Origin: the human T2T-CHM13v2.0 reference genome, Homo sapiens
NCBI RefSeq assembly: GCF_009914755.1
Contig: NC_060931.1
Strand: one strand, 5' to 3'
DNA length: 64,000 nucleotides
Positions 1,844 to 64,000 of the stretch are shown piece after piece. The notes beneath the pieces were generated by a model. It did not search any database and was not told where the DNA came from. It was given only the letters and a program-made list of their open reading frames with translations. Position 1 is the first letter of the stretch. Each line of letters begins with the position of its first letter. The position numbers and the translations under genes are program-made.

Positions 1844-2050
<207 letters not shown>

Positions 2051-3047
2051 TAAGAATATAGCATATAATATACAGACCATACAAAACGTGTTAATCAACT
2101 GTGATGGGTAAGGCTTCCCATGAATAGTAGGCTATTAGTGCTTAAGTTTTGAAGGAGTCAGAAGTTTTATGTGGATTTTCGACTGCACAGCAGTCGGGGG
2201 TCAGTGTCCCTAACCCCCCCACTGTTCAAGGGTTAGCTGTACTATATGATGAGATGTGCAACATGGTTTTGATAAGAGGCAGCAAGGGTTTAGGACATTC
2301 TGTGGCATACTGGCCACATAGCGATTTGCATCAGGTCAGATATTCTAAGTCTAGAAAGCCTGTGGGATAGTTCTAGAGGAGGAGCAGAGATGAAGCAACG
2401 CAAAGATGCCCTTGTTCGTCTGCAAAATTTAGGGTCTCTGAGTGAGACACAGCTCAAGGGGGGGACTGTGAGCATTTGGGGAAGGGGGTTCTGTCCAACC
2501 AGGCAAAGCGGGGAGTCATGGCTATCACAGCCATCTTGCCCTCACATTCAAGAACTTACCATCATAGGGACACTGAAGTTATCTTCTCATATGGCCATAT
2601 AAAGATAGGATGTTATGTATTGACTATCCCACAGATGTATGCCTCTTCTGGTTTATGTTGATATGGAGAGAAGCGAGTTCATGTCATTCATATCTTAATT
2701 GCCCTCAGTCTCACAGAAGGCGATTATGAGGCCAAGAGCCTGGGAGATGCAGCTCCTGGGTTTCCAGCCCTCAGCCCCCAAAACCTTAGGCAGCAGGGAT
2801 TGGAGCAGGTGGTCTGAGGTCCCTTCTAGCTTCAGAAGTGTCATAATCAAATACCAGGAATGACTCTTTGGTTACTTTTTTAACATAGTTTGCACTTAAA
2901 CCCTTTTCAGTAGTAAGCATCTTAGAGACAGACTGAAAATGTGATGTTCTTCTTGAAAACACCCTTTCCCATGTCATCAGTCTGTGGTGTTTGGTGACTG
3001 TCCCCTTCCCCACTGTGCGAGTACTTCCCTCAGGGCTGCTCTGGTGA

Positions 3048-3464
<417 letters not shown>

Positions 3465-3559
3465 ATTGCCGTAACTGATTTTAAAGGGTTTAGATTTTAA
3501 GAATGGTGCTCTTTCATGCCTATTATCAGTAAGGGGACTTGTATTAGAGTCAGAGTCTT

Positions 3560-3623
3560 TTTATTTAGGCCAGTTGTCAAGTGTCAATAAAAGCATCATG
3601 TAATTTATGGTTTTCATTTTATT
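3560..3623 (-). terminator. EIF2AK1: EIF2AK1 polyadenylation signals (two minus-strand AATAAA)
   Basis: TTTATT at 3560-3565 and 3618-3623, bracketing the AIMP2 AATAAA. Confidence 0.7.
3586..3591 (+). terminator. AIMP2: AIMP2 polyadenylation signal AATAAA
   Basis: AATAAA about 120 nt after the stop, followed by T-rich downstream sequence. Confidence 0.85.
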
Positions 3624-4448: not shown

Positions 4449-38884
<34,436 letters not shown>

Positions 38885-39532
38885 CGCCGGCCGCGCGCGG
38901 GCCGCAGCCCAGCCCGCCGGCCAGCCCAGCACTGCCACACTCCGATGCTGCAGCTAGCGCCGTCCGACCCGGAAGTAACCCCTCACCAGACGGAAAACCA
39001 GCCTCCGCCACGCGCGCACCTTCACTGGGGGGCGGGGCTGTAGCAGACTCCGCCCTTTATCAGACAAGAAGAGTTGGGCGTGTCCGGCCCCGGCGTACCC
39101 CCGGCGCATGCGCTCTGGTGGGCTCGTCTACCGGCGGCTGGGTTTCAGGGGCGCCCAGGTGAACCCTGGCCTAGTTCCCAGCTACCCCAGAAGGGTCTTA
39201 GCGCTCACGTCTCACGCCCAGACTCGAATGTCAGTGTAAGAATCAGGTGTCTGCAAAGACTAATCGAAACATATTTACCTTTTGTGGGTACAGCAATGAC
39301 TTTGGTCATTTGTTTTCCAGGAAAAAAATTTTAAAAAGCATTTTCAAAACCTGTCTCAAGGAGACCTGAACCTATTTTGGTCAACTGTTATGCCACAAAA
39401 AAACGGGAGATGCCGCCGGGCGCGGTGGCTCACGCCTGTAATCCCAGCACCTTTGGGAGGCTGAGGCGGTGGATCATGAGGTCAGGAGATCGAGACCATC
39501 CTGGCTAACACGGTGAAACCCCGTCTCTACTA

Positions 39533-39769
<237 letters not shown>

Positions 39770-40019
39770 TTAGAATTTACAACTGAAATGTTTTCCTTAA
39801 AAAAAAAAAAAAAAAAAAAAAATTTAGGTTGAGGGATACAGGTGCAGGTTCGTTTTCCAAACTAAAACCCCCCGCCCTGGCCACACTCCATCTACTATGG
39901 GTTGAAACCCTCAGATTCAAAAATCCACCCTAAGCCGGGCGCTGTGGCTCACACCTATAATCCCAGCACTTCCGGAGACCAAGGTTGGGGGATCACCTGA
40001 GGTCAGGAGTTTGAGATCA

Positions 40020-40220
<201 letters not shown>

Positions 40221-40987
40221 TCAAAAAAAAAAGAAAAAATTATCCTTAATTTTCATGGATCAGCTACAGCTGGAATAAAAATCTTTCAGCTTTTGGACCT
40301 CACCCACAGCACGATGTGTAAAAGTGGTATTGTTTAAGAATTCTATTTGAACTTGTTTTCCATAGACAGTCATACTTGGATGCATTCAGCTTGGTAGAGG
40401 CAATTAAAGGTGTAGTTCTCTTAAACAGCAACTCAAAGTACTGTAAAGATAGATAAAGAAAATAAAGAAAAATAAAAAATAAAGGTATAGTTCTCCAGAT
40501 AGATTAGATTCCAAACATTAGAGATGGGCCAGGCGCGATGGCTCACCTCTGTAATACTAGCACCTTGGGAGGCCGCGGCAGGTGGATCATCTGAGGTCAG
40601 GAATTCAAAACCAGCCTGGCCAACATGGTGAAACCCCCGTCTCTACTAAAAACACAAAAAATTAGCAGGAGAATCGCTTAAACCCAGGAGGCGGAGCTTA
40701 CGGTGAGCTGAGATTGAGCGACTGCACTCCAGCCTGGGCAACAAAGCAAGACTCCGTCTCAAAAAAAAAAAAAAAGAGATTAGAGATGTTCCTTCCTGTG
40801 CCTTGCTGATGTTCTAGAAGAGCACGCCCCTTCTGAGGAGTGTTTTGTCTGTATGTATTCGCAGCTTTAAAAATACAAATACTGTAAAAATATATATATA
40901 TACAAATACAAATACTGGCCGGGCGCGGTGGCTCACGCCTGTAATCCCAGCACTTTGGGAGGCCGAGGCAGGCGGATCACGAGGTCA

Positions 40988-41275
<288 letters not shown>

Positions 41276-42034
41276 TTATCCTAAGAAAAAGGTTAAAAAC
41301 AAGCAAAAATACTTAGTTTAAAAGCTAATGATTGAAACAATGCTTATAATGCCAAAACTGTAAGACAAGATAATCGGCTAAATTAACGACGAACATTCAT
41401 ACAATGGCGCACTTTACTTGCATTAAAAATATTAGCATGGGCCAGGCACAGTGGCTCACACCTATAATTCCAGCACTTTGAGAGGCTGATGCAGGAGGAT
41501 TGCTTGAGGCCAGGAGTTTGAGACCAGCATGGGCAATTTAGTGAGCCCTCCTCTCTATAATTTAAAACAAATAATAATAACGTTGATATGCTAATCTGGT
41601 TCTCACCATGTTCGACCATCACTGGAAATGCCCATTGTTACTGAAGGCATAGAGAAAAAAAGCAACACACTCTATACAGCTGCTCTCGAACCCCTGACCT
41701 CGTGATCCACCCACCTCAGTGTCCCAGAGTGCTGGGATTACAGGCATGAGCCACTGCACCTGGCCGAAATTAATTTTTTTAAGAAATACAATATCGCACA
41801 TCAGCTTGCAATATTAAACATAGTTAACCAAAGAGGAACCCCAAATAACCAATAAGATAGAAAAGCTGCACAAGTTTCATTAGCTACAAGTAAATGCAAG
41901 TTAAATGATGAAATATCGTTTCAAAATATATTTGCAAATTTAAACTTTCTCATACCAAGTGTTGGTGAGGATACGAAAAAAGAGAAACAATCGTACGTTG
42001 CTAACGAGCAATTTAGCAATGTTCAATAAAGTCA

Positions 42035-57300: not shown

Positions 57301-58093
<793 letters not shown>

Positions 58094-58127
58094 TAGCCAG
58101 GATGGTCTCCATCTCCTGACCTCATGA

Positions 58128-58310
<183 letters not shown>

Positions 58311-58509
58311 TGAGTAGCTAAGATTACAGGCACATGCCACCACGCCCAGCTAATTTTTGTATTTTTAGTAGAGACGGAGTTTCACCATATTGGTCCGGCT
58401 GGTCTTGAACTCCTGATCTTGTGATCTGCCCACCTCAGCCTCCCAAAGTGCTGGGATTACAGGCGTGATGAGCCACCGTACCGGGCCACCAGGGCCTAAT
58501 CTTGTTTGT

Positions 58510-59581
<1,072 letters not shown>

Positions 59582-59972: not shown

Positions 59973-60581
59973 CTACCAAGCAACAGTTGTGATGTCATCA
60001 GGATTTGAACCCTCAATTAACAGGGTCTTGCCAACTGTCTGATGGTAAGTCCCAGATACGAAGGCACTTGTCAGGTGAGCACAACTACTTCTGCTTTCTT
60101 CTTTACTTCTCCAAATAGGGTGAATAACTAAGAGATTCCCAAGCCAAATTTGGCTCTTGGTATTCCTTAGGTCAACTAACATATTTTAAATGTCAGTTTC
60201 TAGTAGATCCTGTCAATTAAGAGCGAATTGCCCTCATTTCAATCCCTGGGCATATCCCTTTTGGTTTTAAAGCCTCCACCCCAGTGTAATGTACAAAATA
60301 GATGTTACTAAGGGTTTTTTGTTTGTAACAATTTTTATATAGGGTCACAAAATTGTCAGGTATAAGATGTAGGCATATCTTGAATTTTATTAAAGTGAAA
60401 CACTTTACAGTAATCAACATTGAATACATTTATAAAATATTTCAACTGAAAATATCAGGAGCCATATTTTAAAAAGTACTTAGTATTGGCCAAGCACGGG
60501 GGCTCATACCTGTAATCCCAGAACTTTGGGAGGCCAAGGCGGGCGGATCACAAGGTCAGGAGATCGAGACCACCCTGGCTA

Positions 60582-61272: not shown

Positions 61273-61674
<402 letters not shown>

Positions 61675-61737
61675 TTACATAAGCATATACCACAAAAAAA
61701 CAGTATTGTTTTAAGGGGTTTTTGTGTAAAAGAATTA

Positions 61738-62058
<321 letters not shown>

Positions 62059-62274
62059 TTAAAATCCACTCCCAAATACGTCTTGGGGGAACTTCCTATG
62101 TCAGTATAGCATGGTAGTCCATAACTGGATTCTTCAATAACAGTAAATCTAGCTATTTCCCCCAGCGGAATGGGAATTGTGTCCAACATTTCAAACATCT
62201 GGAAAAGTATCATCTATACGCAGTGTAATGTTTACAGCGAATTCTGCCACTGCTCGCTGATTTTAAACACATTA

Positions 62275-62400
62275 CCCTGTGTCTCAGTTTTTTATTTGTA
62301 AATGATATTTTACCACCTAATTTACAGGGCTGTAGTGAGGATTACATCGATTGACATATTTATGGCAAGCTCTCAGAGAGTGTTGTACCTAATACCATTA
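62275..62400 (+). mobile_element. MIR fragment
   Basis: ctgtgtctcagttttttatttgtaaatg...acagggctgtagtgaggatta core. Confidence 0.65.
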
Positions 62401-62499
62401 TTTGCTCTGATCCTTTAGTTTAGGCTCCTAGGAGACTTGATTCTGGCTGACGTGCTGCGACTGTCATCTTTCAGATCAGAGTAACTCTGAGTCTGGTGG

Positions 62500-63100
62500 G
62501 AGTGTCTTCCCCCGACACCCCGTATACCTCCGCTTTAAGATGAGAGAATCTTCTGTCGGTGCTAGCGTTCAGCGGCTAACGGAGGTGAGCTGGACACACG
62601 TTCCCCAACACCCTCCTCCTGGCCCGCGACCTAGATCCCCACCGGTCCCCACCATCATACCGGGGGCCGGGCCCGCCGCGGGGAGGTAGATGGCGGGCGG
62701 CGCAGCCACAGCCCCGGCCCCGCCGCCTTCCACTTTGCGCTCGCGGGCCCCAGAACTCGTCCGCCGGACAGCCAATCGCGCCTCGCTCCTTGCCCACAGC
62801 CATTGCCGTCCACCCCGGAAGTAGCCCTTCTCCAGACGTAAGACCCGCCCCACCCACGCGCGCGCCGCAGTTTGGGGGCGGAGCCCGCCGCAGACCCCGC
62901 CCCTTCTCCTTTCCGACTGGGCAGGCGGGGCAGGAGGGGCGGCTACCACGCGGGAGCACCCATGGCGCATGCTCTCTGGTGGGCTAGTCTTCGGACGGCG
63001 GCCTGCGGAGGTCGGGTGAGAGGGTGATCGCGCTGCTGAAAGCCGACTGCGCCTACGTGGACTGCGGGTTCGCTCCGGGCCGCTCCTCCCTGCTGTTCAC
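62500..63100. promoter_or_regulatory. CpG island with promoter motifs
   Basis: High CpG; CCAAT 62772-62776, CCGGAAGT 62815-62822, several GGGCGG/CCGCCC, GCGCATGC 62965-62972. Confidence 0.75.
62645..62995 (-). pseudogene. diverged duplicate of EIF2AK1 promoter + exon 1 (gene fragment; CpG island)
   Basis: 62647-62755 aligns to 38761-38870 at about 90/110 positions by hand; translates ...[11 protein letters not shown]...; ETS, GC-box and GCGCATGC order preserved; HRI ATG deleted. Confidence 0.9.
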
Positions 63101-63296
63101 GAGGAAACCTAAAGTCTGTGTTGACCCATGAAACCTGATCTCGTTCTTTCTCCCCTCCTGAGAGTTTACCAGCTGAGTTTCCTGACTTTTATATTCGTTA
63201 ACACTAACATATATAGAAATATAAATAAAATACAGTATACCTGTATATGCAAGTTGCAGAACAACACATAAAATAACATATTCTGTGAGACAATAA

Positions 63297-64000
<704 letters not shown>

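What the first reader, a model, noticed from the sequence alone, without database searches (positions are those of the whole stretch)
62645..62995. A second, diverged copy of the EIF2AK1 promoter and exon 1, 24 kb upstream in the same orientation
Seen: 62647-62755 matches exon 1 plus donor (38761-38870) at about 82% by hand alignment (90/110, one 1-nt gap). Homology continues through the promoter in the same order: CCGGAAGT, cacgcgcgc, GC boxes, gcgcatgc.ctctggtgggct.gtct. A deletion of roughly 35-40 nt removed the HRI ATG. The copy keeps the donor and promoter and has no poly(A) or exon 2, so it arose by DNA-level duplication, not retroposition. Inference: it kept a high CpG density despite this divergence, which suggests it stays unmethylated in the germ line and is an active promoter rather than a dead fragment. 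Its motif set differs: it lacks the promoter GATA site (TTATCA 39057-62), has a degraded NRF1 palindrome and has a CCAAT box.
Basis: partly seen in the sequence, partly recalled or inferred. Interest (0 to 1): 0.85.

Follow-up and report, generated by a model that had tools for sequence, protein, structure and literature searches.

The report
Old EIF2AK1 promoter copy upstream USP42
A roughly 360-base stretch 24 kb upstream of the stress-kinase gene EIF2AK1 is a real, old, decayed copy of that gene's promoter and first exon, and it sits exactly where predicted long forms of the neighbouring gene USP42 start, reading the opposite way; this is a tidy example of a known kind of event rather than a surprise.

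Summary
Window 62642-62999 aligns colinearly, on the same strand, with 38755-39138 (EIF2AK1 exon 1, donor and promoter). 256 of 343 ungapped columns are identical. The local score is 101, against a maximum of 24 in 500 shuffles and 34 in 76 comparisons with real CpG-island promoters. In the T2T genome each region finds only itself and the other.

The copy has no detectable homology in either flank. Only 1 of 15 EIF2AK1 exons is copied. A 38-nt deletion removes the HRI ATG. It is therefore a DNA-level partial duplicate and dead as a coding exon.

Four Gnomon USP42 models start at 62985-62998 on the + strand, at the right edge of the copy, and no minus-strand transcript is annotated there. The copy kept its CpGs (14 against the parent's 15 in a shared block), while the chr3 retrocopy kept 4.

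My best reading is that a whole divergent CpG-island promoter was duplicated long ago, and its "antisense" edge now serves as a distal alternative USP42 promoter. Activity is inferred, not measured. No other mammalian genome was available, so the dating is rough. It is a new member of a known kind, of modest interest.

The parts
38755..39138 (-). Parent: EIF2AK1 exon 1 (38767-38976, ATG 38882-38884), its GT donor with 12 nt of intron 1, and about 160 nt of upstream promoter
   Evidence: RefSeq annotation given with the finding; alignment; translation
62642..62652 (-). Intron-1-like stub of the copy, including the retained GT donor (exon|intron ATG|GTGGGG)
   Evidence: 10 of 11 ungapped columns identical; donor strings
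62653..62754 (-). Pseudo-exon: remnant of the coding part of EIF2AK1 exon 1, without a start codon in the HRI frame
   Evidence: 85 of 102 ungapped columns identical, K2P 0.19; HRI-like frame seen; weak tblastn matches to HRI residues 5-36 and 30-42 in two frames
62754..62755 (-). Junction of the 38-nt deletion relative to parent 38870-38907, which removed the HRI ATG
   Evidence: the edges are approximate because the alignment just right of the gap is weak
62755..62822 (-). Counterpart of the EIF2AK1 5'UTR and start-site region; holds the shared ETS-type box CCGGAAGT (62815-62822) and a copy-only CCAAT (62772)
   Evidence: 47 of 68 columns identical; motifs
62823..62999 (-). Counterpart of the EIF2AK1 upstream promoter: CACGCGCGC, GC boxes, an NRF1-type half-site (62965) and the 12-nt identical block CTCTGGTGGGCT (62974-62985)
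   Evidence: 114 of 162 columns identical, K2P 0.38; motifs
62985..63113 (+). First exon of four Gnomon USP42 models (starts at 62985, 62991, 62991 and 62998). Its first 15 bases lie inside the duplicated segment and the rest lies outside the homology. Donor AAA|GTCTGT
   Evidence: XM_054359202.1, XM_054359198.1, XM_054359199.1, XM_054359201.1; for the donor; for no homology right of 62999
62519..63069 (.). RefSeq functional element 'silent region_17934' (kind: silencer) covering the whole copy. Its paralogue 'silent region_17933' covers parent 38773-38972

Best explanation
The element is an old, DNA-level partial duplicate of the EIF2AK1 CpG-island promoter unit. It comprises about 160 nt of upstream promoter, the start-site region, exon 1 and its splice donor. 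It lies 23.8 kb upstream of the parent in the same orientation.

As an EIF2AK1 exon it is dead: the start codon is deleted and a 1-nt deletion shifts the HRI frame near its end. What was copied is a complete nucleosome-free-region-sized unit with a core promoter at each edge.

In the parent, the minus-strand edge drives EIF2AK1. In the copy, the opposite (plus-strand) edge is the annotated start of long-5'UTR USP42 models. That edge lies just 3' of the NRF1-type half-site and the conserved CTCTGGTGGGCT block. These models splice from 63113 onward into USP42 exon 2.

So the copy most likely works as a distal alternative CpG-island promoter of USP42. It probably stays unmethylated in the germ line, and its pseudo-exon now forms the region about 230-345 nt upstream of that start.

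Shown here: the paralogy, its limits, the disablement, the CpG retention and the coincidence with annotated start sites. Inferred: that the promoter is actually active and hypomethylated, the direction of duplication (EIF2AK1 as source), and an age of tens of millions of years or more.
For: Paralogy: score 101, with 0 of 500 shuffles reaching it, against a maximum of 34 in 76 real-promoter comparisons. The genome-wide hits are reciprocal and exclusive.

Limits: in a repeat-masked self-comparison of 94 kb (chr7:6138001-6232000) there were 13 hits. This pair is the top one, and the other 12 are 96 columns or shorter. Neither flank aligns (right: 267 of 500 shuffles reach the observed score; left: 497 of 500).

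DNA-level origin: 1 of 15 EIF2AK1 exons is copied, and homology crosses both the start site and the donor.

Dead as an exon: the ATG is inside the 38-nt gap, and the HRI-like frame is split between two frames.

USP42 link: 4 of the 18 USP42 transcripts listed start at 62985-62998 on the + strand, and no minus-strand transcript is annotated between the two genes.

Geometry typical of divergent promoters: 163-176 nt between the position homologous to the EIF2AK1 start (62822) and the USP42 model starts, and 148-161 nt at the parent.

CpG retention: o/e 0.88 over 358 nt, with 41 CpG. In the three-way block the CpG counts are parent 15, copy 14 and retrocopy 4.

Age: K2P is 0.18 in the exon part and 0.39 in the promoter part. 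That is far above any within-ape divergence; this last comparison rests on recalled neutral rates.

Direction: in the three-way comparison with the retrocopy (102 ungapped columns) there are 4 parent-unique changes, 11 copy-unique and 20 retrocopy-unique. This fits a constrained parent exon and a drifting copy.

Precedent: promoters duplicated from unrelated genes serve as new alternative promoters in LRRC37 (PMC3371713; abstract and introduction read).
Against: No expression, start-site or methylation data could be consulted. The start sites come from Gnomon predictions whose supporting evidence I could not see.

The curated and select USP42 transcripts start 23.3 kb further right.

RefSeq labels the stretch a 'silencer', not a promoter.

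Conserved blocks are not longer or more numerous than expected by chance at the observed identity. The longest run of 12 is reached in 63% of simulations. Five runs of 8 or more were observed against a mean of 3.9. So there is no sequence proof of purifying selection on the motifs.

The 4-versus-11 asymmetry is not significant (binomial p = 0.12).

The twofold difference in divergence between the exon part and the promoter part (Fisher p = 0.005) is not fully explained. Later gene conversion of the exon part is an alternative.

The direction and date of the duplication cannot be fixed without other species.
Confidence: 0.7

Rival explanations
1. The copy is an inert relic. It is a decaying duplicated fragment with no role of its own. 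The Gnomon starts reflect low-level or noisy transcription from an orphan CpG island, and CpG retention reflects its neighbourhood rather than function.
For: Conserved motif blocks are within chance expectation. The curated USP42 start is elsewhere. Other USP42 models start upstream at 59991-60053, 61771 and 62498 and read through the copy as intron. No literature was found on an upstream USP42 promoter: the 7 papers holding 'USP42' and 'alternative promoter' were seen as a listing only, one passage was read, and it was irrelevant.
Against: Four independent model starts cluster within 14 nt at the edge of the copy. CpG o/e is 0.88 after K2P 0.2-0.4 of divergence, whereas the retrocopy of the same sequence fell to 0.46. 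By established knowledge of CpG decay, a methylated relic should have lost its CpGs.
Confidence: 0.17
2. The copy is an alternative first exon and promoter of EIF2AK1 itself. Minus-strand transcripts would start near 62822 and use the retained donor at 62653 to splice to EIF2AK1 exon 2 (acceptor at 34488). This would work like clusters of tandemly duplicated variable first exons.
For: The copy has the same orientation as EIF2AK1 and lies upstream of it. The GT donor is retained. The ETS-type box at the homologous start site is identical over 10 nt. An ATG at 62803 would be in frame with exon 2 through the exon boundary, because the 1-nt deletion restores the phase.
Against: No RefSeq transcript, curated or predicted, runs on the minus strand from the copy, and both listed EIF2AK1 mRNAs start at 38976. 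An open frame is uninformative at this GC content: 40% of 2000 shuffles are stop-free in a given frame. The donor differs from the parent's at intron position +4 (G for A), which I take, from recalled consensus and without scoring it, to be weaker.
Confidence: 0.04
3. The similarity does not come from one old small duplication. Either the copy is the only recognisable remnant of a much larger (about 24 kb) tandem duplication, or the exon-like part was homogenised later by gene conversion between the two CpG islands.
For: The exon part is significantly less diverged than the promoter part (18 of 113 against 69 of 230 differences, Fisher p = 0.005). The intergenic DNA is half masked repeats (50.1% of 94 kb), so old flanks may have been overwritten.
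Against: Identity falls from 84% to undetectable within a few bases at the left edge, although about 500-600 nt of unmasked sequence adjoin both copies there. That looks like a breakpoint, not gradual decay. No other colinear block was found in 94 kb. Constraint on the parent's coding exon can explain the lower divergence (4 parent-unique against 11 copy-unique changes).
Confidence: 0.08
4. The similarity is chance or convergence between two GC-rich promoters that share common transcription-factor motifs, or both derive from an interspersed repeat.
For: Both regions are about 72-73% GC and carry common housekeeping motifs.
Against: None of 500 shuffles and none of 76 real-promoter comparisons come near the score. 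The best-conserved part, including a 20-nt identical run, lies in coding sequence, not in motifs. There are only two copies in the genome. Neither lies in a masked repeat. No Rfam family reaches threshold: the single hit is at E 0.5, 19.7 bits against a gathering score of 81.
Confidence: 0.01

Closest known systems
LRRC37 alternative promoters Cl3 and Cl8, duplicated from the promoter regions of DND1 and BPTF (PMC3371713; abstract and introduction read)
   Same: A promoter fragment of one gene is copied at the DNA level and then serves as an alternative promoter of an unrelated gene.
   Different: There the copies are young, primate-specific, part of large segmental duplications, and shown to be active by 5' RACE and luciferase. 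Here the copy is about 0.36 kb, much more diverged (75% identity), local (24 kb away), apparently used in the direction opposite to the source gene, and its activity is untested.
Unprocessed (duplicated) pseudogene fragments of human genes
   Same: It is a partial genomic copy that keeps promoter, exon and intron-boundary sequence and has lost the start codon.
   Different: It is not annotated as a pseudogene in the RefSeq table supplied (one search lists only EIF2AK1P1 on chr3). Unlike most such fragments it kept CpG-island character and coincides with annotated start sites.
EIF2AK1P1, the processed pseudogene on chr3 (L010)
   Same: It is also a disabled copy of EIF2AK1 sequence and contains the exon-1 coding part.
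   Different: It is a retrocopy of the spliced mRNA (87% identity over 1503 nt of the mRNA), with broken frames (4 tblastn pieces in 3 frames, longest stop-free stretch 156 aa). It carries no promoter and its CpGs have decayed (4 against 14-15).
Divergent (bidirectional) CpG-island promoters; the idea that divergent transcription seeds new transcription units is recalled general knowledge, with no paper read for it
   Same: There are two core promoters about 150-180 nt apart at the edges of one GC-rich unit. The copy's annotated start is on the side that is 'antisense' in the parent.
   Different: At neither locus are both directions annotated. The parent has no annotated plus-strand partner and the copy has no minus-strand one.

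Membership tests
Unprocessed partial duplicate (duplicated pseudogene fragment) of EIF2AK1 | Significant colinear similarity to the parent's genomic DNA, beyond composition | tested here: met
   score 101 against a maximum of 24 (500 shuffles) and 34 (76 real-promoter comparisons); reciprocal unique genome hits.
Unprocessed partial duplicate (duplicated pseudogene fragment) of EIF2AK1 | Similarity includes non-transcribed and intronic sequence of the parent | tested here: met
   162 aligned columns upstream of the start site at 38976 (70% identical) and 11 columns past the donor (10 identical).
Unprocessed partial duplicate (duplicated pseudogene fragment) of EIF2AK1 | Disabling lesions relative to the parent's reading frame | tested here: met
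   The ATG lies within the 38-nt deletion. A 1-nt deletion splits the HRI-like frame.
Processed pseudogene / retrocopy | Spliced exons joined, poly(A) tail, no parental promoter | tested here: not met
   Only 1 of 15 exons is present. The promoter is included. No A-tract was seen in the sequence read.
Interspersed repeat / transposable element | Many dispersed copies; masked as repeat | tested here: not met
   Two copies in the genome. Neither interval is in the masked_repeat list. Caveat: closed regions and unscored candidates.
CpG-island promoter | Length of at least 200 nt, GC above 55%, CpG o/e above 0.6 (recalled criteria) | tested here: met
   358 nt, GC 73%, o/e 0.88; the wider island 62560-63110 has GC 71% and o/e 0.89.
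CpG-island promoter | An annotated transcription start within it | tested here: met
   four Gnomon USP42 models start at 62985-62998 (+). These are predicted, not curated.
CpG-island promoter | Unmethylated state, H3K4me3, and measured start sites | not testable with these tools
There is only indirect support from CpG retention against the retrocopy.
Bidirectional promoter (two annotated genes or transcripts head to head within 1 kb) | Annotated transcripts in both directions | tested here: not met
   there is no minus-strand transcript from the copy and no plus-strand transcript from the parent in RefSeq.
Alternative first exon of EIF2AK1 | A transcript joining the copy's donor (62653) to EIF2AK1 exon 2 | tested here: not met
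   no such transcript in RefSeq. RNA reads were not available, so absence from cells is not shown.

The most novel reading that the evidence does not exclude
The duplicated unit may still fire in both directions. On the plus strand it would drive the distal USP42 isoforms. On the minus strand its retained start-site box and GT donor would let rare transcripts splice over 28 kb into EIF2AK1 exon 2. An ATG at 62803 would then be in frame, giving an HRI with a different N-terminus that lacks the exon-1-encoded residues. One duplicated CpG island would thereby couple a stress kinase and a deubiquitinase through paralogous promoters with different motif sets (no GATA site, a CCAAT box and more GC boxes in the copy).
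Probability: 0.04. Interest if true: 0.6.

Novelty: new member of a known kind. Interest (0 to 1): 0.3.

Why it matters
This is a clean natural example of a whole divergent CpG-island promoter being copied, after which the copy's other edge appears to have become the productive one. That makes it a small test case for how promoter direction and alternative promoters evolve.

Practically, the two loci share about 84% identity over some 110 nt and several identical blocks of 10-20 nt. Short reads, probes, guide RNAs or bisulfite amplicons aimed at the EIF2AK1 promoter or exon 1 could therefore cross-hit the USP42 upstream island, and the reverse.

The motif differences (GATA site and full NRF1 palindrome in the parent only; CCAAT and extra GC boxes in the copy only) offer a paired comparison for erythroid against housekeeping promoter logic. 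It does not change what is known about either gene's protein.

Tried and rejected
A larger duplication was not found. A repeat-masked self-BLAST of 94 kb gave no other colinear block. Flank alignments were at shuffle level. Exon-by-exon BLASTN found 1 of 15 exons, and tblastn with HRI gave only weak exon-1 hits (E 1.2) to the right of 39200.

A third copy at the curated USP42 promoter was not found. Local scores against that promoter were 17-25.

A structured-RNA explanation for the better-conserved exon part was rejected. Rfam gave one sub-threshold miRNA-family hit in the copy and none in the parent.

Motif-level selection could not be shown, because the run-length simulations were not significant.

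Ortholog comparison of the HRI N-terminus, which would polarise the changes, was not done. The search for homologous proteins needs a query of at least about 360 aa to reach full-length HRI. The spliced protein cannot be given by reference, and typing a joined sequence is barred. The chr3 retrocopy has no stop-free stretch longer than 156 aa, so I used the retrocopy as a DNA outgroup instead.

Poly(A)-signal and donor counts around both loci were not informative.

Literature searches found nothing on this pair:
- 'EIF2AK1' + 'USP42' + 'promoter' gave 2 papers, both cattle studies by title (listing only).
- 'USP42' + 'alternative promoter' gave 7 papers (listing only). One passage was read and was irrelevant.
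- Searches on duplicated or paralogous promoters, silencer screens and EIF2AK1/GATA1 were seen as listings only, except PMC3371713 (abstract and introduction).

I know of none that bears on this locus.

That RefSeq 'silent region' entries derive from a published silencer screen is recalled, not checked.
Full report
1. THE OBSERVATION

I read both stretches. A permissive BLASTN of 61500-64000 against 36000-42000 gave many repeat-type hits in both orientations, about 300 nt long and multi-copy. It also gave one same-strand, non-repeat hit: 62642-62999 against 38755-39138, 65.6% over 401 columns, E 9e-38.

A gapped local alignment gives the same end points. It has 399 columns, 56 of them gap columns, and 256 of 343 ungapped columns are identical (74.6%). 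The order of features is the same in both: donor, exon-1 coding part, start-site box, CACGCGCGC, GC boxes, then GCGCATGC followed by CTCTGGTGGGCT.

A 38-nt gap in the copy lies opposite parent 38870-38907, which holds the HRI ATG at 38882-38884.

2. IS IT MORE THAN CHANCE?

The local score is 101. None of 500 dinucleotide-preserving shuffles reached it (mean 15.6, sd 2.1, max 24). The reverse complement scores 17 and the reversed sequence 14.

As a real-sequence control I fetched 600-767 nt around the start sites of the nearest protein-coding genes on chr7. These made 18 regions covering 20 genes, plus the curated USP42 start. Of the 19 regions, 17 are CpG-island-like. Across 76 comparisons (parent and copy, both strands) the maximum was 34 and the mean 16.9.

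Genome-wide in T2T-CHM13, each region used as query found itself and the other locus only: 83% over 113 nt at E 5e-22, and 72% over 148 nt at E 1e-10. The tool does not show matches in closed regions and scores only the best candidates, so a very diverged third copy is not excluded. Neither interval is listed as a masked repeat. The paralogy is real.

3. THE LIMITS OF THE COPY

I masked the annotated repeats, which make up 50.1% of the 94 kb from chr7:6138001 to 6232000 (the window plus L007-L009). A self-comparison then gave 13 hits. The promoter pair is the top one, and the other 12 are 96 columns or shorter.

Of the 15 EIF2AK1 exons, only exon 1 has a match to the right of 39200 (62655-62833, 71% over 180 columns, E 9e-24). 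tblastn with the HRI protein finds only two weak exon-1 pieces there (E 1.2).

The flanks do not align. For the right flank (63000-63300 against 39139-39440), 267 of 500 shuffles reach the observed score. For the left flank (62340-62641 against 38450-38754), 497 of 500 do.

At the left edge, identity drops from about 84% to nothing within a few bases, although several hundred unmasked bases adjoin both copies. This looks like a true breakpoint about 12 nt into intron 1. The recognisable copy is therefore 358 nt, against 384 nt in the parent. It holds about 160 nt of promoter, the start-site region, exon 1 and the donor.

4. KIND OF COPY

Because homology crosses both the start site and the donor, includes one exon only, and carries no A-tract, the copy is a DNA-level duplicate and not a retrocopy. 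The true retrocopy, EIF2AK1P1 on chr3 (L010), looks quite different:
- it is 87% identical to the spliced mRNA over 1503 nt;
- it matches HRI as four pieces in three frames;
- its longest stop-free stretch is 156 aa.

As an EIF2AK1 exon the tandem copy is disabled. The ATG is gone. The HRI-like frame is thrown out of phase by a 1-nt deletion seven bases from the donor (two frames). The GT donor is retained: parent ACG|GTGAGG, copy ATG|GTGGGG.

5. WHAT THE ANNOTATION ADDS

In RefSeq for T2T, four Gnomon USP42 models (XM_054359202.1, XM_054359198.1, XM_054359199.1, XM_054359201.1) start at window 62985, 62991, 62991 and 62998 on the plus strand. Their first exon runs to 63113 (donor AAA|GTCTGT). 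They continue through 5'UTR exons into USP42 exon 2, where the coding part begins.

These starts fall inside the last 15 aligned bases of the copy. They lie just 3' of the NRF1-type half-site (62965) and the 12-nt identical block (62974-62985). The rest of that exon lies outside the homology.

The curated and select USP42 transcripts start 23.3 kb further right, at chr7:6224323. Other models start at 59991-60053, 61771 and 62498 and read through the copy. No transcript on the minus strand is annotated between the two genes, and both listed EIF2AK1 mRNAs end at 38976.

RefSeq also carries 'silencer' elements over both paralogues (38773-38972 and 62519-63069).

The only annotated transcription from the copy therefore points away from the pseudo-exon and belongs to USP42.

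6. CpG RETENTION AND ITS CONTROL

The copy has GC 73% and CpG o/e 0.88 over 358 nt. The parent has GC 72% and o/e 0.96. There are 41 CpGs in the copy and 47 in the parent, and 23 sit in shared columns.

The retrocopy gives an internal control. In the same 102-103-nt block the parent has 15 CpG (o/e 1.08), the tandem copy 14 (0.89) and the retrocopy 4 (0.46), with TG+CA counts of 7, 9 and 18.

It remains an inference.

7. DIVERGENCE AND AGE

K2P is 0.18 for exon-plus-donor (18 differences in 113 columns) and 0.39 to the right of the deletion (69 in 230). The difference is significant (Fisher p = 0.005).

I made a three-way alignment with the retrocopy (A1). Over 102 ungapped columns, 65 are invariant, 4 changes are unique to the parent, 11 to the copy and 20 to the retrocopy, and 2 columns differ in all three. 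This fits a parent exon held by coding constraint and a drifting copy, which would roughly halve the divergence in the exon part. However, 4 against 11 is not significant (p = 0.12), and later gene conversion of the exon part is not excluded.

Using recalled neutral rates of about 1-2.2e-9 per site per year, these distances point to an event tens of millions of years old. A very rough range is 50-150 Myr. It is certainly not human- or ape-specific. No other mammalian genome could be reached here, so this is unverified.

8. MOTIFS

In addition, the copy has 5 GGGCGG boxes against the parent's 2, and a YY1-like ATGGCGG at 62690 that the parent lacks.

The identical blocks are not more than chance at the observed identity. 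In the promoter part, the longest run of 12 is reached in 63% of simulations, and five runs of 8 or more were observed against a mean of 3.9 (35% of simulations reach 5). In the exon part, the run of 20 is reached in 43%. The sequence alone therefore does not prove selection on the shared motifs. Motif names are recalled consensus strings, not tested binding.

9. MECHANISM I COMMIT TO

The duplicated unit is one complete CpG-island promoter of the divergent type. The distance from the position homologous to the EIF2AK1 start (62822) to the USP42 model starts is 163-176 nt. The corresponding positions in the parent are 148-161 nt apart.

In the parent, the minus-strand edge is productive. In the copy, the plus-strand edge is the annotated one, and it acquired a downstream donor (63113) that links it to USP42.

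I rate this reading at 0.7: an old partial duplicate, dead as an exon, that lives on as a distal alternative USP42 promoter. The closest documented precedent I read is LRRC37, whose alternative promoters were duplicated from BPTF and DND1 (PMC3371713, abstract and introduction).

10. RIVALS

- An inert relic with noisy transcription (0.17).
- A remnant of a larger duplication, or later gene conversion (0.08).
- An alternative first exon of EIF2AK1 (0.04).
- Chance, convergence or a repeat (0.01).

For the third rival, I checked that an ATG at 62803 would be in frame with EIF2AK1 exon 2 if the donor at 62653 were used. But 40% of 2000 composition-matched shuffles are stop-free in a given frame, and no such transcript is annotated. 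It is therefore only not excluded.

11. NOVELTY AND SCORE

I found nothing in print on this pair. The searches were made, seen as listings only apart.

The kind of thing is known: partial unprocessed duplicates, and duplicated promoters reused as alternative promoters. This is a new member of a known kind. It is robustly real, tidy and mildly instructive, but it would not surprise a specialist, and its activity remains to be measured. Interest is 0.3.

Noticed in passing
window 38773-38972 and 62519-63069 (also 38633-38702): RefSeq functional elements of kind 'silencer' (silent region_17933, _17934, _17932) cover both paralogous CpG islands, so the same class of experimental label was attached independently to parent and copy. 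Their origin in a published screen is recalled, not checked.
   Followed up: partly
L010 (chr3:145196800-145200200), about 584-2822: The processed pseudogene EIF2AK1P1 is 87% identical to the EIF2AK1 mRNA over 1503 nt. It is broken into at least 4 protein-level pieces in 3 frames. Its exon-1 part has lost most CpGs: 4 against the parent's 15.
   Followed up: yes
window 62642-62754 against 62755-62999: The pseudo-exon part of the copy is about half as diverged from the parent as the promoter part (K2P 0.18 against 0.39, Fisher p = 0.005). Coding constraint on the parent or later gene conversion could explain it, and neither is settled.
   Followed up: partly
window 57752-59580: Two adjacent RefSeq 'NANOG-H3K27ac hESC enhancer' elements lie just left of the most upstream USP42 model start (59991).
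   Followed up: no
L014 (chr7:6391715-6392315, CYTH3 start region): This gave the highest control score against the EIF2AK1 promoter (34, against 10-28 for the other controls). I did not inspect the alignment and offer no explanation for it.
   Followed up: no
window 62874-62945 (+): A sub-threshold Rfam hit to mir-1260b (19.7 bits against a gathering score of 81, E 0.5) lies in the GC-box part of the copy. I take it for chance.
   Followed up: yes
window 39400-62000 and on to chr7:6232000: The EIF2AK1-USP42 intergenic and upstream region is dense in roughly 300-nt repeats in both orientations. 50.1% of the 94 kb is masked. This limits any search for older flanking homology.
   Followed up: partly
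window 2020-3607 and 11151-16327: From the supplied annotation: the 3' end of AIMP2 overlaps the 3'UTR exon of EIF2AK1 tail to tail, and ANKRD61 lies inside EIF2AK1 introns on the opposite strand.
   Followed up: no
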